Source of the DNA: a virus
UHGV virus genome: UHGV-0189815
Length of the DNA: 33,152 nt
Reading direction: 5' to 3' (one strand)
The notes beneath the pieces were generated by a model. That model saw nothing but the letters and a program-made list of their open reading frames with translations. It made no database searches and was not told the DNA's origin. Position numbers and translations under genes: made by a program. Below are positions 2,519 through 11,635 of the stretch, in pieces; the stretch's first letter is position 1; each line of letters begins with the position of its first letter.

Positions 2519-2953
2519 TTAGAACAGATCTTTTACCAAAGCGATTATGACTCCTGCTGTAGCGAAAAGGGCAGAGCATAGCCATATCATTTGCTTATGT
2601 AATCCCTTTGCAAGATCTTCCCTGGTTGCGGACCTGGACTCTTTGAGTTCGCCGCTAATCTGTGCCTTAAGCTCGCGCATATCTCCGGTCATCTGCGCAC
2701 GGAGTTCTTTCATATCCCCAGTTATCTGCGCCTTGAGTTCACGCAGATCGCCCTTTGAGGCGAAGTCATCAGCGCGCGCGTTGAGATGGGTAAGTTCTTT
2801 AACAATTACACCGGTATTGTCTTCCAGTTTTTCAACGCGTTTTATTAGGCTGTTCATGCCGTTGCCTCCGTCGTCACTACTGTTTGTGGACTCATTATTT
2901 ATGGGTACCTGACGTTCTCTTATATGATGAACATTATCCTTAGTCTGACTCAT
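2519..2953 (-). CDS. Tail-anchored coiled-coil membrane protein with tandem 11-residue repeats (moron gene; function unknown)
   Basis: 144-aa ORF with AAGGA Shine-Dalgarno 8 nt upstream; repeats GDLRELKAQIT/GDMKELRAQMT/GDMRELKAQIS (33-bp DNA period, about 2639..2752); single C-terminal hydrophobic helix (MIWLCSALFATAGVIIALV). Its start overlaps the stop of the upstream gene. Confidence 0.7.
   Translation of the reverse strand: MSQTKDNVHHIRERQVPINNESTNSSDDGGNGMNSLIKRVEKLEDNTGVIVKELTHLNARADDFASKGDLRELKAQITGDMKELRAQMTGDMRELKAQISGELKESRSATREDLAKGLHKQMIWLCSALFATAGVIIALVKDLF
2639..2752. repeat. About 3.5 tandem copies of a 33-bp coding repeat inside the coiled-coil gene
   Basis: Repeated 11-aa units in the translation correspond to near-identical 33-nt units in the DNA. 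Confidence 0.7.
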
Positions 2954-3389
2954 TTTTGCATTCCTTGCGATTCTCTTCTATCCATGCGACGACCGGGCGG
3001 GCGCGATAAATGCTGATATGCCCGCAGTTTGGGCAATTAATTTTATATTCGACATCGGCTAATCTTATTTTTGTATGAGTATTCACAAACACGGGCGTTA
3101 CATACCAGAGAGTATTATCAGCTGCGAATTTCTCCTGATCGATTTGCGATAAAGAGTCATAGTTTTCGGGAGTCTTTGCACCGTTATAAACTCCGTTTTC
3201 GGACATTGTTAATTTAGTAAATCCACATGATATGCAGAACTGAGCGGCGTTTTTTGACATCAAAAATTCAGCGAATAATTCAGGGGTAACTTGTTGTAGC
3301 CTTTTCATAAGTTCTGGTGATGGTTCTCCATAGCGGGAATTACGAGGTGGGCGTATTGGGGGTATAAATGTATCATTATCTTTTGACAT
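2940..3389 (-). CDS. Hypothetical protein with Cys-rich zinc-ribbon-like motifs (moron gene)
   Basis: 149-aa ORF with AAGGA Shine-Dalgarno upstream; CxxC (CISCG) and CPNCG motifs; AT-rich codon usage unlike the neighbouring phage genes; apparently co-transcribed downstream of the repressor. Confidence 0.65.
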   Translation of the reverse strand: MSKDNDTFIPPIRPPRNSRYGEPSPELMKRLQQVTPELFAEFLMSKNAAQFCISCGFTKLTMSENGVYNGAKTPENYDSLSQIDQEKFAADNTLWYVTPVFVNTHTKIRLADVEYKINCPNCGHISIYRARPVVAWIEENRKECKNESD

Positions 3390-3789: not shown

Positions 3790-4209
3790 ATGACACCAGA
3801 GCAAAACAGAGCTTTACCCGCACATCAGGAGGCTGATCCTGGTTACTACCCGGTCGTTGAACTGGCACAAGGCGCGTTTTTACCCGAACAGACTCAAAGC
3901 AATCATCAGCGCCGCGCTCGGCGATCCCCTGATAGTCGTTCTGAACGTGAACTAATGGCAATTGACCGCGCACTGAAACATATCCTTAGTAGTGGCATTA
4001 AACCGGTTTTAACAGTGCAGGAATTTTCCGAATTCTTCGGACAGTCTTTGCGTAAGGTTCAAAGCGATGCTGAGCGCGGCTATCTGCCATTAGTGCCGCG
4101 TGTCGATCCAAATCGTCGCGAACTAAGACAAATCAATATGGTTGCATGGTATGCCAGAGCTTTTATGACTGCCGAAGCCAGCCTGACAAAAACGACAGCG
4201 TTTAATTGA
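3790..4209 (+). CDS. Cox/Apl-like excisionase-type regulator (first gene of the early rightward operon)
   Basis: C-terminal part (TVQEFSEFFGQSLRKVQSDAERGYLPLVPRVD...MVAWYA) resembles P2 Cox (PYQEFAKLIGKSTGAVRRMIDKGKLPVID...WVYLPAW). Start ambiguous: ATG 3790 has an AGGA-type Shine-Dalgarno; the internal ATG 3955 would give a Cox-sized 84-aa product. Confidence 0.55.
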   Translation: MTPEQNRALPAHQEADPGYYPVVELAQGAFLPEQTQSNHQRRARRSPDSRSERELMAIDRALKHILSSGIKPVLTVQEFSEFFGQSLRKVQSDAERGYLPLVPRVDPNRRELRQINMVAWYARAFMTAEASLTKTTAFN

Positions 4210-4217
4210 GAGGAAAA

Positions 4218-4454
4218 ATGTTTAATCCACTTAACACAGAAAAGGCGCGGGAAGTCGATCCGTTTTATGAAGGGTACGACGTGCCGGTATATGTGCAACC
4301 GGGTAAGCGACTGCCCGTCGCGATCGAATCCCGCGAAATGGAAATGGCAATTCTGGCCGCGTTTGATTACGGCATTGACGCACTGAACGATGACGGACGC
4401 CACCAACTGGACCGCCTGATCGCTGATCTAAAGCTTGCCATTACTGGCAGATAA
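4218..4454 (+). CDS. Hypothetical early protein
   Basis: ORF in the early operon; likely start at ATG 4218 (MFNPLN...), with GAGG upstream. No recognisable motif. Confidence 0.45.
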   Translation: MFNPLNTEKAREVDPFYEGYDVPVYVQPGKRLPVAIESREMEMAILAAFDYGIDALNDDGRHQLDRLIADLKLAITGR

Positions 4455-4465
4455 ACGGGTGCGCA

Positions 4466-4687
4466 ATGAGCCAATATTTTTTTTCGGGGATATTTAATGT
4501 TGCGGTTTTTATTTTGGGGGCCGTTGTTGTTTGGTCCTACGGAAGATTAAAAAACAGTAGCAACAGAATCCGTTTTATTGACGCATTACACAGGGATATT
4601 GAAGCGGCGGCACCATTATTTTTAGATGTATTTTGTGGCTGGTTGCTAATATTTGGCGTCGTTTCCCTTTCAGAGTGTCTTTTATGA
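4466..4687 (+). CDS. Hypothetical small membrane protein (two predicted transmembrane helices)
   Basis: 73-aa ORF with two hydrophobic segments; AT-rich; position in the early operon. Confidence 0.35.
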   Translation: MSQYFFSGIFNVAVFILGAVVVWSYGRLKNSSNRIRFIDALHRDIEAAAPLFLDVFCGWLLIFGVVSLSECLL

Positions 4688-4914
4688 GTGAACAACAAAT
4701 TCCTTCATTCGCCAGTCTATTACGTAACGGTTGCCAGGTCACACATTGCAAATCGACGCGCGGCTGGATTGAAACACCGGACGGGCGTTATTTTAAGCCT
4801 GAACCGGCAAAAGTTCAGTTTATTAAGGGCAGAAACAGGCCTTTTGTATATACGCAAAAAATAAACAGGGGCGTAATAGCCGCATTGATTAAATTAATTA
4901 AACGCTATTTTTAA
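4684..4914 (+). CDS. Hypothetical early protein
   Basis: In-frame ATG at 4684 (MSEQQIPSF...) inside the ORF-track ORF 4633..4914; overlaps the stop of the upstream ORF. Confidence 0.4.
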   Translation: MSEQQIPSFASLLRNGCQVTHCKSTRGWIETPDGRYFKPEPAKVQFIKGRNRPFVYTQKINRGVIAALIKLIKRYF

Positions 4915-4991
4915 TTAACTGAATTTATTAAATATCACACATCACTTTAAAAAGTGGTGCGGATTCTTTCAACCTAAAAACGGGTAATTAT

Positions 4992-5207
4992 ATGTCTATG
5001 ACTAAACGGGATGAATACAGTTTTGTATTGCATTCATTTTTACCGGAGCTTGAAGAGCGCGGAATGACTATAAAAACGCGTAACGCAGGCGAATTAACAC
5101 TGGCATCAACAGATCCTGATGTTGTTGCATTTATACAATCCATGCGCCGTCGTCTTACTAATGCGCTGAGCCGTCCATCTCTTCCCTCTTCACCATACGG
5201 AATCTAA
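4992..5207 (+). CDS. Hypothetical early protein
   Basis: 71-aa ORF immediately upstream of, and same strand as, the exonuclease gene. Confidence 0.45.
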   Translation: MSMTKRDEYSFVLHSFLPELEERGMTIKTRNAGELTLASTDPDVVAFIQSMRRRLTNALSRPSLPSSPYGI

Positions 5208-5209
5208 TC

Positions 5210-5797
5210 ATGAATAATATAATGATTGACATTGAAACATTAGACAATAAACCAACTGCCGCAATTGTTTCTATTGCTGCCGCATTTTTCGATCCCCGAA
5301 CTGGCGAGATTGGGATGTCTATTTATATTCCCGTCAATGTTGCTGATGCTCAATACAAAGGGGCGACAATTGGTGCGGATACTGTTAAATGGTGGATGAA
5401 GCAAAATTTATGCGCAAGAGATGAGCTTGTATCTGATGCTGGCTTGCCTTTATCAGAGTCGCTCTATAAGTTGAACGATTTTTGTTGTTTTTGTGATGAT
5501 TCAGACAATTTAAAAATATGGGCGCGCGGCACTGATTTTGATTTACCAGTTATTTATCACTCAATGCGCCTGACAGGGATTCGTCCGGCCTGGAATTTCT
5601 GGAATGCTCGCGACGTTAGAACGGTTGCAGAAATCGCGCTGACAATATGCGGTCATTCATCAATGCGCGCGGTTCTGGAACATCCGCATCACGCAATGAA
5701 TGACGTTATTAACCAGATTGCCAGATTAAGCGACGATATCAAAAACATTTCTGCCGTTCGCGCGGAGAAGGTGAATCATGATTCGCCGGAAAAATGA
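5210..5797 (+). CDS. DEDD-family (DnaQ-like) 3'-5' exonuclease
   Basis: Exo I motif IDIETLD near the N-terminus and HHAMNDV (H-x4-D) near the C-terminus, as in DEDDh exonucleases; 195 aa. Confidence 0.7.
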   Translation: MNNIMIDIETLDNKPTAAIVSIAAAFFDPRTGEIGMSIYIPVNVADAQYKGATIGADTVKWWMKQNLCARDELVSDAGLPLSESLYKLNDFCCFCDDSDNLKIWARGTDFDLPVIYHSMRLTGIRPAWNFWNARDVRTVAEIALTICGHSSMRAVLEHPHHAMNDVINQIARLSDDIKNISAVRAEKVNHDSPEK

Positions 5798-5999
5798 TAA
5801 TTGCCCCGCCTGCGTTGTTGATCAGGCACACAATTTAATTAATGAATTCCGACAGGGTCGCCGCGATAAAGTGCGGCGGCTGGCGACTGGTTATCTGTCA
5901 ATTGCAATCGGCAGATGTTGGCGGTTACTGAGTAAAAACGACGGCCAGCAATGGACTTTATTAACTCACGAACGATATAACAAGGAATATAAAAAATGA
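5778..5999 (+). CDS. Hypothetical small protein with CxxC motif
   Basis: 73-aa ORF with AGGTGA Shine-Dalgarno; overlaps the exonuclease stop and abuts the dam start (translational coupling). Confidence 0.5.
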   Translation: MIRRKNDNCPACVVDQAHNLINEFRQGRRDKVRRLATGYLSIAIGRCWRLLSKNDGQQWTLLTHERYNKEYKK

Positions 6000-7012
6000 T
6001 CAGACCGTTTTTGAAGTGGGCAGGTGGAAAAACTCGCGCTTTGCCTGAGCTGCTGCCGCACTTGCCAAAGGGTTATTGTCTGATGGAACCATTTGTTGGC
6101 GGCGGTTCGGTATTTTTAAACACAAGTTATGATAAGTATGTTTTAGCTGATATTAATTCAGATCTGATAAATACGTATGAAAACGTGAAGCATCGCACTA
6201 ATCTATTTATTGACGTTGCACGGGAATTATTTAAAGAAGGTAATTCAAAAGAATATTATTTAAAGATTCGCAAAGAATTTAACGAACTAAATACAAGTTA
6301 CCACGAATGCGGTCGCCGCCCCTTATCACTGAGATTGTCGTTAATGCAGTCGGCGCGGTTTCTCTATTTGAATCGGCACGGTTATAACGGCGTTTGCCGC
6401 TATAACAATAAACTGGAATACAATGTTCCGTTTGGTCAACATAAGACAGCGCCGTATTTTCCCGAAGAGGAGATCCGGCGGTTTGCAGAAAAGGCGAATG
6501 ATACAAACGCAGTGTTTCTCAATCTTAATTTTGATGACACATTATCAATGCTGACATTCGGGCCTAATCTCGTTATTTACTGCGATCCGCCATATTTACC
6601 CGCCAGCGAAACCGCAGACTTTACCACGTATTACGGACAGAGATTTTCGCGGGACGATCACTGCCGCTTAGTTCAGAAATTATTAGAAATAAGTGCGCGT
6701 GGTGCTGCAAAAGTTGTTATTTCAAACAGCGACACACCCGCCGCGCGAGAAATATACGTGTCGTTTACATTTCAGGAAATTAATGTTCAACGGTCAGTCA
6801 GTGCCAATACCAGCAAACGCGCGACTGCAAAAGAAGTGATCGGATATATCCCACATTGTGAATATTGCGGGGGTCGTCTGATTACTGGCCGTCCGTGTAG
6901 TTGTGACACCCAACGCCGCACGGTTTGGGGTTGCCCTGATGGCGGCTGCGGAGCTTGTGACAGTGTCGATCTTTGTGCGAGCGCGGGGAGTGAATTCTAT
7001 GACCAGGACTAG
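5996..7012 (+). CDS. dam: DNA adenine (N6) methyltransferase, Dam family, with Cys-rich C-terminal extension
   Basis: N-terminal FLKWAGGK and FVGGGSVF (SAM-binding motif I) and catalytic DPPY motif (IYCDPPYLPA); about 60 extra C-terminal residues with nine Cys (CEYCGG...CSCD...CPDGGCGACD...C). Confidence 0.85.
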   Translation: MIRPFLKWAGGKTRALPELLPHLPKGYCLMEPFVGGGSVFLNTSYDKYVLADINSDLINTYENVKHRTNLFIDVARELFKEGNSKEYYLKIRKEFNELNTSYHECGRRPLSLRLSLMQSARFLYLNRHGYNGVCRYNNKLEYNVPFGQHKTAPYFPEEEIRRFAEKANDTNAVFLNLNFDDTLSMLTFGPNLVIYCDPPYLPASETADFTTYYGQRFSRDDHCRLVQKLLEISARGAAKVVISNSDTPAAREIYVSFTFQEINVQRSVSANTSKRATAKEVIGYIPHCEYCGGRLITGRPCSCDTQRRTVWGCPDGGCGACDSVDLCASAGSEFYDQD

Positions 7013-7196
7013 TGCGCCCGCCGTCATTACCCGTGTATTTGACATATGGGAAATAAAAAAGAATGAGCAGTATTTAATTGATGCCGAAGTGTTTATTGAC
7101 GGGTTTTACCGCAATGAACAGATCACGCGTTCCACGCGATATCAGGCAATTAGAGTTTTACCCGGTGACAATATTGATTTGAGGGGTGCGGAATGA
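6999..7196 (+). CDS. Hypothetical small protein
   Basis: In-frame ATG 6999 overlapping the dam stop; 65 aa; no recognisable motif. Confidence 0.35.
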   Translation: MTRTSAPAVITRVFDIWEIKKNEQYLIDAEVFIDGFYRNEQITRSTRYQAIRVLPGDNIDLRGAE

Positions 7197-7597
7197 CAAT
7201 TCACATAGTAGCGATTCAGCCGGATTATTTTCAGCCAGTGTTAAAACGCGAAAGACGCGCGGTGCTGTTAAATGAGGGGGATTATATAAAAGAAGATTTT
7301 TTATTTATCCGTGAGTTTGTTTTTGACGATACAGGAAAGAATCCGCCAACGGCGACAGGGGCTTGTGTCGCCGGGGTGATTACTGATGTTTATAAGACGG
7401 GGACTGGCGATGTTTTGCTGAGTTTTGATCTGTTATTTGTGTATAGCTATGTGCTTATTAATTGGGGTCTGACAAGAGGTGATCTGCTTAAACTGAGTAT
7501 TTACCCTGACTTTCTTGAAGAGCTTTTTACCGCGCACCCTCATTCGCCCGTATTTTACGCGATCGCTTACCGCATGATTGAAGAGGCGGATTTATGA
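7193..7597 (+). CDS. ASCH/PUA-like domain protein (putative)
   Basis: N-terminal pattern IHIVAIQPDYFQPVLKRERRAVLLNEGDY resembles the ASCH-domain N-terminus (conserved YF...E.R pattern); 134 aa; start overlaps the upstream stop. Confidence 0.5.
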   Translation: MTIHIVAIQPDYFQPVLKRERRAVLLNEGDYIKEDFLFIREFVFDDTGKNPPTATGACVAGVITDVYKTGTGDVLLSFDLLFVYSYVLINWGLTRGDLLKLSIYPDFLEELFTAHPHSPVFYAIAYRMIEEADL

Positions 7598-7634
7598 CCG
7601 CCTATTACAACGAAATCGATCCATTCGCTGCTCT

Positions 7635-10142
7635 GTGGCTGGCGTCTATCAATTGACGCGCGGACGCTACGCCCCAACACCGCCGCCCCCGTTCCTGGGG
7701 AGCGGCGCAGACACTACACTGTATCCATACGCGTGGAACGCCCCGCGCGCAGCAATTAGCGTTGACCGGACGCCGAAACATGATCCGCAGGAGTTCGCCG
7801 CAGAATACGAATTCTGGCAGCGTGTAAAATCCACTTTTCAGCCATATCCGACATTCATCCGCCGCCGCATGATGGCGCGCGTTGAACGTTCTCACGAAAA
7901 GCAGGGGCGACACGTCGCGGCGCTGGCGCTGCGAGATATCGCCAGCCGCGAATTAATCCACATTTCCGCCGTTATGCAGCAGTATTCCATAAGCCCGCCC
8001 CGCAATGCTGGGCGGGTTTATGAAACGCCGTTTGTTGGCCTTGAGCCGCTCTATCACAATTTTGAACAACTCACCGATCTGATCCGTCGTTTCGACACAC
8101 TGCCTGATTATTCGCCGGAGGATGTTGAATTACTGGCGCAGGACGTCGCAATTTACGCAAACGCCACACTGGCAGAAATTGCCGCAGATTGTGAACACCT
8201 GGACGAAATCGAAACTGGCCGGCGGTTTTACGCTGAATTGAAAACGTTGGCTAACGTTTTTCACGTCACGGCGGCAAGGGCAAACAAAAAACGCTTGTTG
8301 CCCGACGAGCTGGCGGCAGCGATCAGCAAAATGATCGACGCGCGCTACTGGAACCGCAATTTACTGCGTTACGCCGTGCGCTGGCGGGAGCATTTGCGGA
8401 TCTCCCTGGGCGACGTGCGCCGCAGCGTGTCAACCTATTGTAGTAAAGAACGCGTGAATGCGTGGCGGGAGCGACGCGAGCGTAATCGCGACATCATGTC
8501 AAGACTGGAAATAGAAGACGTTGAATCAGGCGAGCGTTTTTCACTGCTGGAGCAGATAGAAAAAAGCGCGTCCAATCCAGCGATACGCCGCACCGAGCTT
8601 ATGACGCGAATCGGCGGTTTTGAGCGAGTAGCCAATGAGCAGGGATTTGTCGGCAGCTTTTTTACTATTACCGCGCCGTCAAAATATCACGCGTTTACCG
8701 CGTTTGGTCATCGTAATCCTAAGTGGCAAGGCGCTAGCCCGCGCGAGTCTCAAAAATACCTGAATACCATTTGGCAGCGTATCCGCGCCGAGCTGGCGCG
8801 CCAGGAAATCGGCGCTTTTGGCTTACGTGTAGCCGAGGCGCATCACGACGCAACGCCGCACTGGCACGGCCTGTTATTCACTCTGCCGGAGCATCAGGAG
8901 GCGCTACGCGACGTCATGCAGCGTTACGCAACAGCTGAGGACGCCGACGAATTAACGACGAAACACGGCATACAGCCGCGTTTCGATTTCAAACCGATTG
9001 ATCCCGAGCGGGGAACCGCTACGGGCTATATCGTCAAATACGTCTCTAAAAATATCGACGGTTACGCGCTGGATAATGAGCGCGACGACGAAAGCGGACG
9101 TCCACTGAAAGACACGGCGCAACATGCGACCGCGTGGGCGTCTACGTGGGGGATCAGGCAGTTCCAGTTTTTGGGCGGTGTGCCGGTGTCGGTGTACCGC
9201 GAACTGCGGAGGCTGGGGAATCAACAGGCCGCTGATCAGATTAATCCGCTGTTTGCCGAGATCCACGCCGCAGCGGACGCGGGGGATTGGGGCGGGTTTG
9301 TTAATCTCATGGGCGGACCGCTGGCAAAACGCGCGGATTTACCGTTGCGCACGTTTTATCAGGATAAACCGGAGCCTAACAGCTGGGGCGAATATCTGAC
9401 GGTTATCCGCGGTGTATTTATGCCGCTGATTAATATCCCGCCGGTAATAACCAGGTTGCGGGATTTTCGCATTGTTAAAAAATCGCCGGAGAGCGCGGAG
9501 CGCCCCGGTGATGGCTGTTCATCTTTTGACCTTAAGGGCGCGTCTGCGCCCGCTAGGACTTGTGTCAATAACTGTACGGAGCATGAAAAAACAGCAAAAG
9601 ATGAACAAAATATAAACAGTGAAGCGGACTTTTTGGGAGAGAAAAACAGCGGTGCGCCGCCACCGGGAGATCCCGAACAGGTTCTGATCGGCAAATTGAC
9701 ACGGGAACAACGCAAACGCCTGCGCGCTGAGTGTCTGACGCACAAAAAACAGCGTAAACAATCGGCTGCTGACGAGTTCGAAGCGCTGGCGAATCAATTA
9801 GCGACGGCGGACTGTTCGGGCGCGGACCAGCTGCGCGCAGAAAATTATTTACGTGCGGCGGCGGTCATTCGCGAGACTGAAAAACCGGTCACGGCTGCAG
9901 CGGCAGAACTGGCCGCGCGCGTCATGGAGTGGGCGAAATTGCGCAAAATACCGCTGGGCCGCGCGCAATCGCTGGCACTGGCGCAAGGCGGACAGGCGAC
10001 AGTTATTGACAACGTTTACCGGGCTAACATGAACACCGGCGAACTGATCCTGATTGACACGTTCCAGCCGTGGCGGCGTGTGCTGGCGAAAAAACAAACT
10101 GTGGAACTGATGGCGCGCTGGCGGGCTGTGGTAACCGTATGA
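7635..10142 (+). CDS. Rolling-circle replication initiator (P2 gpA-like HUH endonuclease)
   Basis: Aligns with my memory of P2 gpA: YAWNAPR, FTITAPSKYH, HUH-type TPHWHGLLF, catalytic Tyr pair GYIVKYVSKNIDGYALD, GRPLKDTA...TAWASTW. ORF-track start is TTG 7578; by alignment to the P2 gpA N-terminus the likely start is GTG 7635 (or TTG 7650). Confidence 0.85.
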   Translation: MAGVYQLTRGRYAPTPPPPFLGSGADTTLYPYAWNAPRAAISVDRTPKHDPQEFAAEYEFWQRVKSTFQPYPTFIRRRMMARVERSHEKQGRHVAALALRDIASRELIHISAVMQQYSISPPRNAGRVYETPFVGLEPLYHNFEQLTDLIRRFDTLPDYSPEDVELLAQDVAIYANATLAEIAADCEHLDEIETGRRFYAELKTLANVFHVTAARANKKRLLPDELAAAISKMIDARYWNRNLLRYAVRWREHLRISLGDVRRSVSTYCSKERVNAWRERRERNRDIMSRLEIEDVESGERFSLLEQIEKSASNPAIRRTELMTRIGGFERVANEQGFVGSFFTITAPSKYHAFTAFGHRNPKWQGASPRESQKYLNTIWQRIRAELARQEIGAFGLRVAEAHHDATPHWHGLLFTLPEHQEALRDVMQRYATAEDADELTTKHGIQPRFDFKPIDPERGTATGYIVKYVSKNIDGYALDNERDDESGRPLKDTAQHATAWASTWGIRQFQFLGGVPVSVYRELRRLGNQQAADQINPLFAEIHAAADAGDWGGFVNLMGGPLAKRADLPLRTFYQDKPEPNSWGEYLTVIRGVFMPLINIPPVITRLRDFRIVKKSPESAERPGDGCSSFDLKGASAPARTCVNNCTEHEKTAKDEQNINSEADFLGEKNSGAPPPGDPEQVLIGKLTREQRKRLRAECLTHKKQRKQSAADEFEALANQLATADCSGADQLRAENYLRAAAVIRETEKPVTAAAAELAARVMEWAKLRKIPLGRAQSLALAQGGQATVIDNVYRANMNTGELILIDTFQPWRRVLAKKQTVELMARWRAVVTV

Positions 10143-10312: not shown

Positions 10313-11635
10313 ATGTACGCTGAGTTAAATGAATTTATAAATGCTCTAGATAAATTAAAAGATTATTTTGATGAGTCTGAAAAATCATATGGGCATAAAA
10401 ATAAATGGCTTATAGAAGCATTTGGCATCGGTCATCCTGTAATGTTGCCAAAAGACTTTTCTGACTATATTGAAAGAATGATCGAGAAGTCAAAAAAATT
10501 AGAGATGCTTAAATTAACTGATTTCGAACTAGATGAACTCGACTATGTAAGAAAAGTCGTAACAAAGGTACATTCTGACCTTGCTCCTAGCTTTTATAAT
10601 GGAAATGGTGTACAAGCGATTCCTTCATTTTTAATGACCATGACATATATATCTTCATTTTTAGATTCTTTGATTTCCTTCGACCGACTCCAGGATACGG
10701 ATGCCGTACCTCAGAAATTAGCACGTAAAATACGGAGTATGGATGCAAGAGTAAGACAAGCTACTCCAGAAATTGAAACACTGGAAGGTAAAATTAAATT
10801 GATTAACGATGCATATGCCGCAGCTGATAATCTACCGGTATATATGGAAGAGTTAAATAAATACAAGGCAGAATTAACGGAAATAAAAGAGTACATTTTA
10901 AAGGCAAAAGAAGAAGCATCTCATTCGAATGTCTTAATGGATGTTTGTCTAAACGAAGGGGAAAAGATAAAAGAAGAGTTAAATGCAAAAAAAGAGATCG
11001 CAGAAAATTATCTTTCGAAATGTGAGGAAGCTATTCGTGCTTCGACTTCAAAAGGGTTAGCGGGAGCTTTTGAGATCAAAGCGAATAAGTTAAACTGTAG
11101 CATTCGTTTATGGGTAGCAGGATTATCTGCGGCATTAATTGCCGGTGGGTTTGTTGGTTATGAAAGGTTAAAAGCATTATCCAATGTTTTAGCGCAACCA
11201 GATACCAGTGCAATAGTGATTGCAACGCAATTAATACTATCCATATTTAGTATCGGCGCGCCGCTTTGGTTTGCGTGGTTGTCTACAAAGCAAATTAATC
11301 AAAGATTTAAGCTAGCAGAAGATTATGCCTTTAAGTCTGCCGTTGCAAAAGCATATGAGGGTTACAGAAAAGAAGCATCGCAACTTGATGATGGAACATT
11401 CGCTACTCGGTTGTTTGATTCTGCTTTAACCCGTCTAGAGGAAGCCCCATTAAGATTTGTCCAAGGTGATGATCACTCAACACCATGGATGGAAATGTTA
11501 AACTCTAAAGCTTTTTCTAAATTTCTTGATTCTTCGATTGATAATGTAAACTATGTTAAAAATATCCTTGATCGTAAGGCTAAACCCTCTGTAGTTGCAG
11601 ATAAGCCACAGCAGATGGAAAAGGGGACTGAATAA
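10313..11635 (+). CDS. AT-rich moron: 440-aa coiled-coil protein with two central transmembrane helices; unknown function (candidate defence/exclusion factor)
   Basis: Complete ORF with GAGG Shine-Dalgarno, AT-rich upstream region (10143..10312) and its own terminator; visibly more AT-rich than flanking phage genes; long N-terminal helical region rich in E/K, hydrophobic segments LWVAGLSAALIAGGFVGY and IVIATQLILSIFSIGAPLWFAWL, about 130-aa C-terminal domain. No P-loop or other catalytic motif seen. Confidence 0.8.
   Translation: MYAELNEFINALDKLKDYFDESEKSYGHKNKWLIEAFGIGHPVMLPKDFSDYIERMIEKSKKLEMLKLTDFELDELDYVRKVVTKVHSDLAPSFYNGNGVQAIPSFLMTMTYISSFLDSLISFDRLQDTDAVPQKLARKIRSMDARVRQATPEIETLEGKIKLINDAYAAADNLPVYMEELNKYKAELTEIKEYILKAKEEASHSNVLMDVCLNEGEKIKEELNAKKEIAENYLSKCEEAIRASTSKGLAGAFEIKANKLNCSIRLWVAGLSAALIAGGFVGYERLKALSNVLAQPDTSAIVIATQLILSIFSIGAPLWFAWLSTKQINQRFKLAEDYAFKSAVAKAYEGYRKEASQLDDGTFATRLFDSALTRLEEAPLRFVQGDDHSTPWMEMLNSKAFSKFLDSSIDNVNYVKNILDRKAKPSVVADKPQQMEKGTE

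What the first reader, a model, noticed from the sequence alone, without database searches (positions are those of the whole stretch)
5996..7012. Phage Dam methyltransferase carrying a roughly 60-residue Cys-rich C-terminal extension
The catalytic core is a standard Dam family enzyme (FLKWAGGK, FVGGGSVF, DPPY), but the protein continues well beyond the expected core length into a tail with nine cysteines in CxxC-like pairs. This suggests an appended zinc-binding module that might alter DNA targeting or mediate protein interactions. A phage-borne Dam is itself a plausible anti-restriction or regulatory factor.
Basis: partly seen in the sequence, partly recalled or inferred. Interest (0 to 1): 0.45.

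Follow-up and report, generated by a model that had tools for sequence, protein, structure and literature searches.

The report
Prophage Dam methylase with cysteine-rich tail
A P2-like prophage of Escherichia encodes an ordinary GATC-type Dam DNA methylase that carries a real, conserved 55-residue tail with eight cysteines; such tails turn out to be common but undescribed in this group of phage methylases, and what they do is still unknown.

Summary
The ORF 5996-7012 (+) is real. It encodes a 338-aa orphan Dam-family N6-adenine methyltransferase in the early operon of a P2-like (Peduoviridae) prophage.

- **Core (aa 1-283):** a canonical Dam by profile and by predicted fold. The residues that read GATC in E. 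coli Dam are conserved.
- **Tail (aa 284-338):** it has 8 cysteines, not 9.
- **Not an artefact:** it is not a frameshift fusion. The downstream 65-aa ORF is separate and conserved. Tail dN/dS is 0.10-0.27, like the core. All eight Cys are invariant across six cluster representatives at 67-90% whole-protein identity.
- **Distribution:** cellular Dams end 2-11 aa after the core. In contrast, 76 of the 120 closest homologue clusters carry tails with 4 or more Cys, in several architectures. These clusters are enterobacterial, and those examined in context lie in P2-like prophages.
- **Shared module:** the commonest architecture (CxxCG...CPDCG...GDATY) also occurs inside E. coli Rac RecE and in lambdoid exonuclease fusions. 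The window's 8-Cys type is rare (7 of 5,426 complete E. coli genomes) and was found nowhere else.
- **What is missing:** no profile, solved structure or AlphaFold model supports a fold for the tail, and no literature on it was found.
- **Best reading:** a metal-binding, net-acidic appendage used for docking or regulation rather than for reading DNA. An Fe-S cluster is a live rival.

Moderate interest.

The parts
5996..7012 (+). dam gene: 338-aa orphan Dam-family N6-adenine DNA methyltransferase with C-terminal Cys-rich tail
   Evidence: ORF list. Pfam PF02086, 204.8 bits. TIGR00571, 262 bits against a cut-off of 114.85. The best PADLOC family is the orphan MTase family. RefSeq annotates the 96%-identical copy in E. 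coli as a 338-aa DNA adenine methylase.
5996..6844 (+). catalytic core, aa 1-283 (D12/alpha-class MTase fold)
   Evidence: phmmer against E. coli Dam 2G1P aligns aa 3-283 (E 1e-67). The AlphaFold model matches E. coli Dam structures with target-normalised TM-score 0.91 and rmsd 2.3 A.
6092..6115 (+). motif I, FVGGGSVF (AdoMet binding), aa 33-40
   Evidence: Read directly from the sequence.
6584..6595 (+). motif IV, DPPY (catalytic), aa 197-200
   Evidence: Read directly from the sequence. Invariant in all 120 homologues.
6845..7009 (+). C-terminal tail, aa 284-338: 8 Cys, net charge -4
   Evidence: dN/dS is 0.10-0.27. No family, PDB or fold match.
6857..6904 (+). Cys module 1, aa 288-303: C-x2-C-G-x8-C-x-C (CEYCGGRLITGRPCSC), mildly basic
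   Evidence: The Cys are conserved in 6 of 7 cluster representatives. The start 'IPxCxxCG' is the only part that aligns to the common type-B tails (hhalign, 8 columns, probability 6%).
6932..6976 (+). Cys module 2, aa 313-327: C-x4-C-x2-C-x5-C (CPDGGCGACDSVDLC), acidic
   Evidence: Invariant Cys. The same unit occurs on its own, directly after the core, in other Dams: P0042, P0091, P0097 and locus L014. The spacing resembles the EndoIII 4Fe-4S loop C-x6-C-x2-C-x5-C.
6902..6962 (+). pair of TGTGACA direct repeats (6902-6908 and 6956-6962) that bound a natural in-frame 18-codon deletion
   Evidence: The 320-aa variant P0133 lacks aa 304-321. Repeats located.
6985..6990 (+). Shine-Dalgarno sequence GGGGAG for the downstream ORF, embedded in dam codons G-S-E
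   Evidence: Sequence. Comparison of dam 3' ends across loci.
6999..7196 (+). separate 65-aa ORF that overlaps the last 14 nt of dam
   Evidence: Annotated as a separate CDS in E. coli 99RCEF. Present after every type-A dam examined. Exact protein seen on 481 contigs. 35% identical to a small ORF near dam in L019.
5778..5999 (+). upstream ParE-like ORF; its stop overlaps the dam start (ATGA)
   Evidence: Pfam PF24732, E 1.8e-17. Same gene order in all type-A loci.

Best explanation
The gene encodes an orphan Dam methyltransferase of a P2-like prophage. It is expressed from the early (replication) operon and is translationally coupled to its neighbours.

The core (aa 1-283) methylates adenine in GATC in the same way as E. 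coli Dam. This is inferred from conserved motifs, fold and DNA-contact residues.

The 55-aa tail is a genuine, selected part of the protein. Its eight invariant cysteines most likely fold around metal as two small units:
- Module 1: C288, C291, C301, C303.
- Module 2: C313, C318, C321, C327.

Zinc is the default metal. The result would be an acidic knob on a basic enzyme. Because the tail is acidic and has no DNA-reading signature, its most likely job is one of two things:
- to dock Dam onto another protein, such as a phage replication-module protein or the host replisome; or
- to modulate the enzyme's own DNA binding.

It is unlikely to change sequence specificity.

Shown here: the tail is real, in frame, under purifying selection, has conserved Cys, and is clade-specific. 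Inferred: metal binding, the 4+4 partition of the cysteines, and the docking or regulatory role.
For: **Core**
- Pfam, TIGRFAM and PADLOC hits.
- Predicted fold matches E. coli Dam with target-normalised TM-score 0.91.
- The EcoDam residues K9, Y119, N120, R124 and P134 are named as DNA contacts in PMC4417163. They are identical in the alignment. L122 is V here and Y138 is H.

**Tail is real and selected**
- Tail dN/dS is 0.10-0.27 against 0.06-0.24 for the core, over 7 loci.
- 8 of 8 Cys columns are invariant in six sequences, against 14 of 44 other tail columns (P = 4e-4).
- The downstream ORF and its Shine-Dalgarno sequence are intact in all type-A loci.

**Clade specificity**
- In 80 loci from a scan of species-representative genomes, Dams outside the closest enterobacterial set end 2-11 aa after the core, apart from a few longer tails without Cys. 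Only the closest, enterobacterial loci have Cys-rich tails.
- 76 of 120 homologue clusters have 4 or more Cys in the tail.

**Modularity**
- Module 2 occurs alone in other Dams.
- The commonest tail type recurs in Rac RecE and in lambdoid exonuclease fusions. This shows that such Cys units are portable mini-modules.
- Weak PDB matches of that common type are all to zinc knuckles, zinc ribbons or rubredoxins.

**Charge**
- The tail is -4 and the core +5. 69 of 76 Cys-rich tails are acidic.
Against: - No curated zinc-finger or other profile matches the tail, even at E = 10.
- AlphaFold gives pLDDT about 41-55 for the tail, in context and alone.
- Homologues differ widely in tail architecture, and about 20 of 120 have no tail. 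The tail is therefore not needed for Dam activity as such.
- A natural in-frame deletion removes most of module 2 (P0133).
- The last 5-8 residues are constrained by the overlapping ribosome-binding site and start of the next gene, not necessarily by protein function.
- No partner protein was identified. The tail type does not co-vary cleanly with the downstream gene.
Confidence: 0.5

Rival explanations
1. Module 2, or all eight Cys, binds an iron-sulfur cluster ([4Fe-4S]) rather than zinc. This would give the phage Dam a redox-active or structural Fe-S appendage like those of EndoIII and MutY and other DNA-processing enzymes.
For: The spacing C313-x4-C318-x2-C321-x5-C327, 11 residues from the C-terminus, resembles the C-terminal cluster loop of E. 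coli endonuclease III. That loop is C-x6-C-x2-C-x5-C followed by 8 residues (Nth translated). That these four Cys ligate the 4Fe-4S cluster is from my own knowledge of EndoIII. The C-x2-C-x5-C part is conserved in all type-A and type-D tails. The pattern is not a classic two-knuckle zinc ribbon.
Against: Pfam holds a short EndoIII Fe-S model (from my recollection), and the scan at E up to 10 reported nothing. The extra identities to Nth (CG-x-C...DLC) are not conserved among homologues, so only the spacing is shared. Compact Cys4 zinc knuckles with similar spacing exist. No literature on an Fe-S Dam was found.
Confidence: 0.2
2. The tail has little function of its own. It is a fast-evolving junction segment at a recombination-prone gene boundary in a mosaic early operon. 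It is tolerated because it folds harmlessly, and it is retained mainly because it carries the translation signals of the next gene.
For: Tail architecture is extremely diverse among close homologues. Tail-less, truncated and internally deleted variants exist. The C-terminal residues are explained by the Shine-Dalgarno sequence plus stop/start overlap. AlphaFold sees no fold.
Against: Purifying selection on the tail is as strong as on the core, although synonymous sites are near saturation. There is strict conservation of eight residues of the rarest amino acid, while 30 of the 44 other tail columns vary. The Shine-Dalgarno constraint covers only about the last 8 codons. A similar module is retained in unrelated enzymes, RecE and a DEDD exonuclease.
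Confidence: 0.2
3. The tail is an artefact: a frameshift or read-through fusion of dam with the downstream small ORF, or a sequencing error.
For: The downstream ORF overlaps the dam 3' end. One 76-aa database protein (P0121) is a frameshifted fragment of such a gene.
Against: Identical or near-identical 338-aa proteins occur on hundreds of independent contigs in E. coli and E. albertii and in 7 complete E. coli genomes. The 65-aa ORF is intact and separately annotated. Homologues at 64-77% identity keep the same frame and the same Cys.
Confidence: 0.02

Closest known systems
E. coli Dam (EcoDam; PDB 2G1P, 4RTJ) and the Dam family TIGR00571 / Pfam PF02086
   Same: 41% identity over aa 3-283. 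Same fold (target-normalised TM-score 0.91), same motifs I and IV, and the same key GATC-contact residues. An orphan enzyme with no partner endonuclease.
   Different: EcoDam ends 12 residues after the core and has no Cys cluster. The window protein scores below the cut-off of the host-Dam equivalog model NF008152 (272 against 441 bits). It also has a hypervariable insert at about aa 100-117 and the 55-aa tail.
Dams of P2-like phages and prophages with the common 'type B' tail (for example Enterobacter phage phiT5282H; cluster P0014 with 1,261 member sequences)
   Same: Same genomic position in the early operon of Peduoviridae. 52-59% identical core. The tail starts at the same point with (I/L)P-x-C-x-x-C-G and is Cys-rich and acidic.
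   Different: Type B has 4-7 Cys in a CxxCG-x5-6-CPDCG knuckle pair followed by GDATY. The window has 8 Cys in a different arrangement. Profile-profile comparison aligns only 8 columns.
Cys knuckle inside E. coli Rac prophage RecE (exonuclease VIII), roughly aa 520-555, and inside lambdoid 'exonuclease VIII' proteins that end in an Rv2179c-like 3'-5' exonuclease
   Same: It shows that small Cys4 units of this kind are portable add-ons to phage DNA enzymes. About 64% identical to type-B Dam tails.
   Different: It is homologous to type-B tails, not demonstrably to the window's tail. It is internal rather than C-terminal. It is itself uncharacterised, and lies in what I recall to be the recombination-dispensable N-terminal part of RecE.
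Endonuclease III / MutY C-terminal [4Fe-4S] cluster loop
   Same: Four Cys with similar spacing at the extreme C-terminus of a DNA-acting enzyme.
   Different: The first spacing is 4, not 6. There is no profile match, and the host domain is unrelated.
Eukaryotic CXXC domains of DNMT1, MLL and CFP1 (eight Cys, two Zn)
   Same: A DNA methyltransferase carrying an eight-Cys module is an analogy only.
   Different: The Cys pattern differs and there is no Pfam hit. CXXC domains are basic DNA readers (from my own knowledge), whereas this tail is acidic.

Membership tests
Dam family N6-adenine DNA methyltransferase (Pfam PF02086 D12 class; TIGR00571) | Profile score above the curated cut-off | tested here: met
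   PF02086: 204.8 bits against a cut-off of 22. TIGR00571: 262.4 bits against 114.85.
Dam family N6-adenine DNA methyltransferase (Pfam PF02086 D12 class; TIGR00571) | AdoMet-binding motif I (FxGxG) and catalytic motif IV (DPPY), in alpha-class order | tested here: met
   FVGGGSVF at aa 33-40 and DPPY at aa 197-200. DPPY is invariant in 120 homologues.
Dam family N6-adenine DNA methyltransferase (Pfam PF02086 D12 class; TIGR00571) | Dam fold | tested here: met
   The AlphaFold core is largely confident (most 10-residue blocks average pLDDT 79-98). Foldseek against E. coli Dam gives E 3e-27, target-normalised TM-score 0.91 and rmsd 2.3 A.
Dam family N6-adenine DNA methyltransferase (Pfam PF02086 D12 class; TIGR00571) | GATC-reading residues of EcoDam (K9, Y119, N120, L122, R124, P134) | tested here: met
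   The alignment gives K7, Y130, N131, V133, R135 and P145. That is 5 of 6 identical, with L changed to V. Residue roles are taken from PMC4417163.
Dam family N6-adenine DNA methyltransferase (Pfam PF02086 D12 class; TIGR00571) | Actual methylation of GATC | not testable with these tools
   Needs DpnI/MboI digests or a SMRT/nanopore methylome.
Housekeeping Dam orthologue (NCBIfam equivalog NF008152) | Score above the equivalog cut-off | tested here: not met
   272.1 bits against a cut-off of 441. It is a phage paralogue, not the host Dam.
Zinc ribbon / rubredoxin-like Cys4 knuckle modules | Match to a curated zinc-binding profile or to a solved zinc domain | tested here: not met
   No Pfam family at E up to 10. 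No PDB sequence at E up to 10.
Zinc ribbon / rubredoxin-like Cys4 knuckle modules | Two CxxC / CPxCG knuckles that supply four ligands | tested here: inconclusive
   One canonical CxxCG (288-292) and one CGAC (318-321). The other candidate ligands are a CxC and two single Cys.
Zinc ribbon / rubredoxin-like Cys4 knuckle modules | Confident predicted fold | tested here: not met
   pLDDT below 50 for aa 298-338 in the full model. Mean pLDDT 41 for the tail alone.
Zinc ribbon / rubredoxin-like Cys4 knuckle modules | Metal content | not testable with these tools
   Needs ICP-MS or spectroscopy.
Unnamed 'type B' module shared by P2-like Dam tails and RecE (CxxCG-x5-6-CPDCG-x3-GDATY) | CPDCG second knuckle and GDATY segment | tested here: not met
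   Absent from the window tail. hhalign of the type-A tail alignment against the type-B tail alignment aligns only 'IPxCxxCG' (probability 6%).
EndoIII/MutY-type [4Fe-4S] cluster loop | C-x6-C-x2-C-x5-C near the C-terminus | tested here: inconclusive
   The window has C-x4-C-x2-C-x5-C, 11 residues from the end. E. coli Nth has C-x6-C-x2-C-x5-C, 8 residues from the end. No profile hit.

The most novel reading that the evidence does not exclude
The Cys-rich acidic tails of P2-like phage Dams would be a family of portable, fast-evolving metal-binding adaptor modules. This includes the two-unit, 8-Cys version here and the related knuckle inside RecE and lambdoid exonucleases. In this reading the modules recruit different phage DNA enzymes to a common hub, such as the replisome, SSB-coated DNA or a phage replication protein. 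In the 8-Cys form they might carry a [4Fe-4S] cluster. That would be the first Fe-S DNA adenine methyltransferase that I know of.
Probability: 0.12. Interest if true: 0.65.

Novelty: new variant of a known kind. Interest (0 to 1): 0.35.

Why it matters
Phage-encoded orphan Dams are usually treated as plain copies of the host enzyme. This analysis shows that most Dams of enterobacterial P2-like prophages carry an extra Cys-rich, acidic C-terminal module that cellular Dams lack. The module is under selection, comes in several interchangeable architectures, and in its commonest form is shared with RecE and another phage exonuclease.

If the module tethers or regulates these enzymes, it could explain two things: how a phage achieves full methylation of rapidly replicating DNA, and what the poorly understood N-terminal part of RecE contributes. 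If it is merely a stabilising metal clip, the finding is a modest annotation point. Either way it defines a testable, unnamed domain family.

Tried and rejected
1. **Frameshift or fusion artefact: rejected**.
2. **SSB-tip mimic: largely rejected.** Many homologue tails end in acidic residues plus Phe (DDLEAF, GVEAF, AEPF), which looks like the SSB C-terminal tip. At the DNA level the ending is xTG GAG GCT TTT TAA TG. That is the Shine-Dalgarno sequence plus a stop/start overlap for the next gene. The window's own tip (EFYDQD) does not fit either.
3. **Tail as a known domain: nothing found.**
   - Pfam scan of the tail sequences, and PHROGs and NCBIfam scans of the whole protein, whose matches end at about aa 285.
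   - PDB sequence search.
   - A profile search of 1.84 billion representative proteins gave only one compositional hit, at E 2.5e-4.
   - A word-indexed search gave only a frameshifted dam fragment.
   - No phage isolate carries it.
   - IMG/VR holds only two Dam loci, one of them identical to the window.
   - JGI metagenome contigs gave none.
4. **Structure prediction of the tail: uninformative.** Tried with the full alignment and with a tail-only alignment, so no fold search on the tail was attempted.
5. **Homology of the window's tail to the common type-B/RecE module: not demonstrable** beyond the first knuckle.
6. **Co-variation of tail type with the downstream gene: no clean pattern.** The same small-ORF family, PAPS-reductase-like genes or Dcm genes follow different tail types. 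BLASTP links the 65-aa ORF to the L019 small ORF but not to the L003 one.
7. **TraR/DksA zinc finger:** the ending of one homologue (P0037) resembled one from memory, but Pfam gave no hit. Left as an untested lead.
8. **Compensated frameshift between the window and L001 at aa 100-112: rejected.** It is just a hypervariable loop.
9. **Literature:** searches found no description of these tails or of an Fe-S or Zn Dam.
Full report
**Observation**

The window carries an ATG-initiated ORF at 5996-7012 on the + strand, encoding 338 aa.

Pfam PF02086 (D12-class N6-adenine MTase) covers aa 8-267 (E 2.4e-60). TIGR00571 'dam' scores 262 bits against a cut-off of 115. The host-Dam equivalog NF008152 is below its cut-off (272 against 441 bits).

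phmmer aligns E. coli Dam residues 5-266 to aa 3-283. E. coli Dam then ends 12 residues later, while this protein continues for 55 residues.

The tail holds 8 cysteines, not 9: C288, C291, C301, C303, C313, C318, C321 and C327. That is 14.5% Cys, against 0.9% in 16 other ORFs of the window (binomial P = 4e-8), and against 5 of 283 in the core.

**Context**

The window is a P2-like (Peduoviridae) prophage next to mipA.
- The same arrangement is annotated in E. coli 99RCEF. It runs: integrase, repressor, early operon with a Fil-like protein, a 3'-5' exonuclease, a ParE-like protein, a 338-aa 'DNA adenine methylase', a 65-aa ORF and a 134-aa ORF, then the gpA replication endonuclease, portal and terminase.
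- In the window the exonuclease is Rv2179c-like (5210-5797) and the ParE-like ORF is 5778-5999. The 854-aa ORF is the gpA nickase (PHROG 91).
- The genes overlap: ATGA at the ParE-like/dam junction, and 14 nt at the dam/65-aa-ORF junction. They are therefore probably translationally coupled.
- No endonuclease gene is adjacent, and the best PADLOC family is the orphan MTase family.
- The exact protein is deposited many times as E. coli or 'Myoviridae sp.' Dam (56 contigs). Its 90% cluster has 38 sequences from E. coli and E. albertii.
- An IMG/VR contig is identical to window 3854-10009.
- Only 7 of 5,426 complete E. coli genomes carry this tail.

**Is the tail an artefact?**

No.
- The 65-aa ORF starts at ATG 6999 with a GGGGAG Shine-Dalgarno sequence (6985-6990) embedded in dam codons. 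It is separately annotated and is present after every dam of this type that I fetched.
- I compared seven loci: the window, L001, L083 and L085-L088, with core identity 63-90%. Where dS is not saturated, tail dN/dS is 0.10-0.27, against 0.06-0.24 for the core.
- In six sequences all eight Cys columns are invariant, while only 14 of 44 other tail columns are (P = 4e-4). In the most divergent sequence, seven of the eight are kept.
- A rare natural variant (P0133, 320 aa) has an in-frame 18-codon deletion between two TGTGACA repeats (6902-6908 and 6956-6962). It removes most of the second Cys group.

**The core is an ordinary Dam**

- The AlphaFold model is confident over most of the core. It superposes on E. 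coli Dam structures with target-normalised TM-score 0.91 and rmsd 2.3 A.
- PMC4417163 describes the roles of several EcoDam residues: R124 reads the guanine, Y119 intercalates, N120, L122 and P134 contact the inner base pairs, and K9 makes phosphate contacts. In the alignment these correspond to R135, Y130, N131, V133, P145 and K7.
- GATC specificity is therefore inferred, not shown.
- GATC is over-represented in the window, not avoided: 167 sites against 105 +/- 10 expected.

**How the tail compares with relatives**

Among the 120 best homologue clusters (all annotated simply as Dam), 76 have 4 or more Cys after the core. I grouped the tail architectures as follows.

| Type | Description | Clusters (of 120) |
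|---|---|---|
| A | the window's 8-Cys form | 7 |
| B | VCxxCGRxGGGxCPDCG..GDATY.. (one cluster, P0014, has 1,261 member sequences) | about half, including 9-10-Cys forms that begin the same way (as in Salmonella phages SEN4/SEN5) |
| D | CPxGGCGxCx5C directly after the core, the same as the window's second Cys group | 3 plus variants |
| E | non-Cys 'WxGFDPA' tails | 11 |
| none | no tail or a short tail | about 20 |

- In 80 loci from a scan of species-representative genomes, Dams outside the closest enterobacterial set end 2-11 residues after the core, apart from a few longer tails without Cys. Cys-rich tails occur only in the closest, enterobacterial loci.
A Cys-rich tail is common in this Dam clade, but I found no established function or description.

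**An unexpected relative of the common tail**

- A tblastn search with a type-B tail hit proteins annotated 'exodeoxyribonuclease VIII' in lambdoid phages, at about 64% identity over 35 aa (E 1e-7).
- In phage Tritos the module ([25 protein letters not shown]) lies at about aa 555-585 of an 823-aa protein. It sits just upstream of a C-terminal Rv2179c-like 3'-5' exonuclease domain.
- E. coli K-12 Rac RecE contains [25 protein letters not shown] just before the region that I recall as its crystallised nuclease domain.
- In IMG/VR the top 80 loci split into 38 Dam tails and 42 RecE-N-like proteins: 41 exonuclease fusions and one truncated locus.
- Small Cys units of this kind are thus portable add-ons of phage DNA enzymes.
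- However, profile-profile comparison of the window's tail with type B aligns only the first knuckle, IPxCxxCG (8 columns, probability 6%). The window's tail cannot be filed in that module family.

**Searches for the window's tail elsewhere**

| Search | Result |
|---|---|
| Pfam | nothing at E up to 10 |
| PDB sequences | nothing |
| Profile over 1.84 billion representative proteins | one compositional hit |
| Word-indexed search | only a frameshifted dam fragment |
| Phage isolates | none |
| JGI metagenome contigs | none |

AlphaFold gave pLDDT below 50 for aa 298-338 in context, and a mean of 41 for the tail alone. There is therefore no structural support for any fold.

**What the tail most likely is**

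- The density and strict conservation of Cys point to metal binding.
- The independent occurrence of the second group (C-x4-C-x2-C-x5-C) as a complete tail in other Dams suggests a 4+4 partition.
- The first group (C-x2-C-G-x8-C-x-C) begins like a zinc knuckle.
- The second group sits 11 residues from the C-terminus. It has the spacing of the endonuclease III cluster loop apart from the first gap. Nth has C-x6-C-x2-C-x5-C, 8 residues from its end. An Fe-S cluster is therefore a serious rival to zinc.
- The tail is net -4 (aa 284-312 are +2, aa 313-338 are -6) on a +5 core. 69 of 76 Cys-rich tails in homologues are acidic. This argues against a DNA-reading finger. It favours either a protein-docking knob or an intramolecular regulator of DNA binding.
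- The extreme C-terminal residues should not be over-read. In this locus and its relatives they encode the Shine-Dalgarno sequence and start of the next gene. That also disposes of an SSB-tip-mimic idea I had entertained.

**Verdict**

The enzyme is a new variant of a known kind: a canonical phage orphan Dam with an undescribed, clade-typical, selected Cys-rich acidic tail of unknown metal and unknown role.

Interest is moderate. It defines an unnamed domain family and a link to RecE. It does not overturn anything, and the mechanism remains inferential.

Noticed in passing
window 6836-6870 and 6070-6108: E. coli chromosomal CRISPR arrays contain spacers that match this dam gene. One match is 100% over 35 nt in at least 6 listed genomes (for example ECONIH4) and lies at the core/tail junction. 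The other is 97% over 39 nt in strain F3_13_1_3. 20 of the 28 E. coli hits to the region appear to be short spacer-type matches of this kind.
   Followed up: no
L090 4787-7387 (E. coli K-12 recE) and L089 1854-4325 (phage Tritos): The commonest Dam-tail module (CxxCG-x5-6[13 protein letters not shown]) is also present inside Rac RecE, just upstream of its nuclease domain. It is also present in lambdoid 'exonuclease VIII' proteins whose C-terminus is an Rv2179c-like 3'-5' exonuclease. It appears to be an unnamed portable Cys4 module of phage DNA enzymes.
   Followed up: partly
window 5210-5797: The Rv2179c-like 3'-5' exonuclease encoded two genes upstream of dam belongs to the same domain family that is fused downstream of the Cys module in the lambdoid proteins.
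   Followed up: no
L015 and L018 (ORF directly after dam); P0081, P0089 and P0107 tails: Some Dams have non-Cys tails containing 'W-x-G-F-D-P-A-x-G-x-D-x-S'. A similar 'G-(F/Y)-D-P-A' motif forms the N-terminus of the separate small ORF downstream of dam in other loci. This suggests gene-boundary fusions or shuffling at this junction.
   Followed up: no
window 7193-7597: The 134-aa ORF two genes after dam matches PHROG 1812 and weakly matches an 'RNA-binding protein' PHROG. The 134-aa ORFs at the same position in related loci are recorded as DUF3850 (PF12961). DUF3850 is, as far as I recall, an ASCH/PUA-like fold that could recognise modified bases. Pfam gave no hit for the window copy itself.
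   Followed up: no
window 10313-11635: A 440-aa ORF lies between the gpA replication gene and the portal gene, a position reported as an anti-phage hotspot in P2-like phages. It has no Pfam family and only marginal PADLOC hits. The E. coli 99RCEF relative has sfsB plus a HEPN protein at that position.
   Followed up: partly
whole window: GATC is over-represented: 167 sites against 105 +/- 10 in dinucleotide-preserving shuffles.
   Followed up: no
window about 6293-6345 (dam aa 100-117): This is a hypervariable insert relative to E. coli Dam. It differs completely even between the window and a copy that is 96% identical across the surrounding 3-kb region (SYHECGRRPLSLRL against SCRKDWCRYPSQRL). 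A DNA alignment shows plain divergence, not a compensated frameshift.
   Followed up: yes
window 2940-3389 (- strand): A 149-aa ORF between the integrase and the repressor region has weak sub-threshold hits to small zinc-ribbon families. It may be another Cys-containing small protein of the prophage.
   Followed up: no
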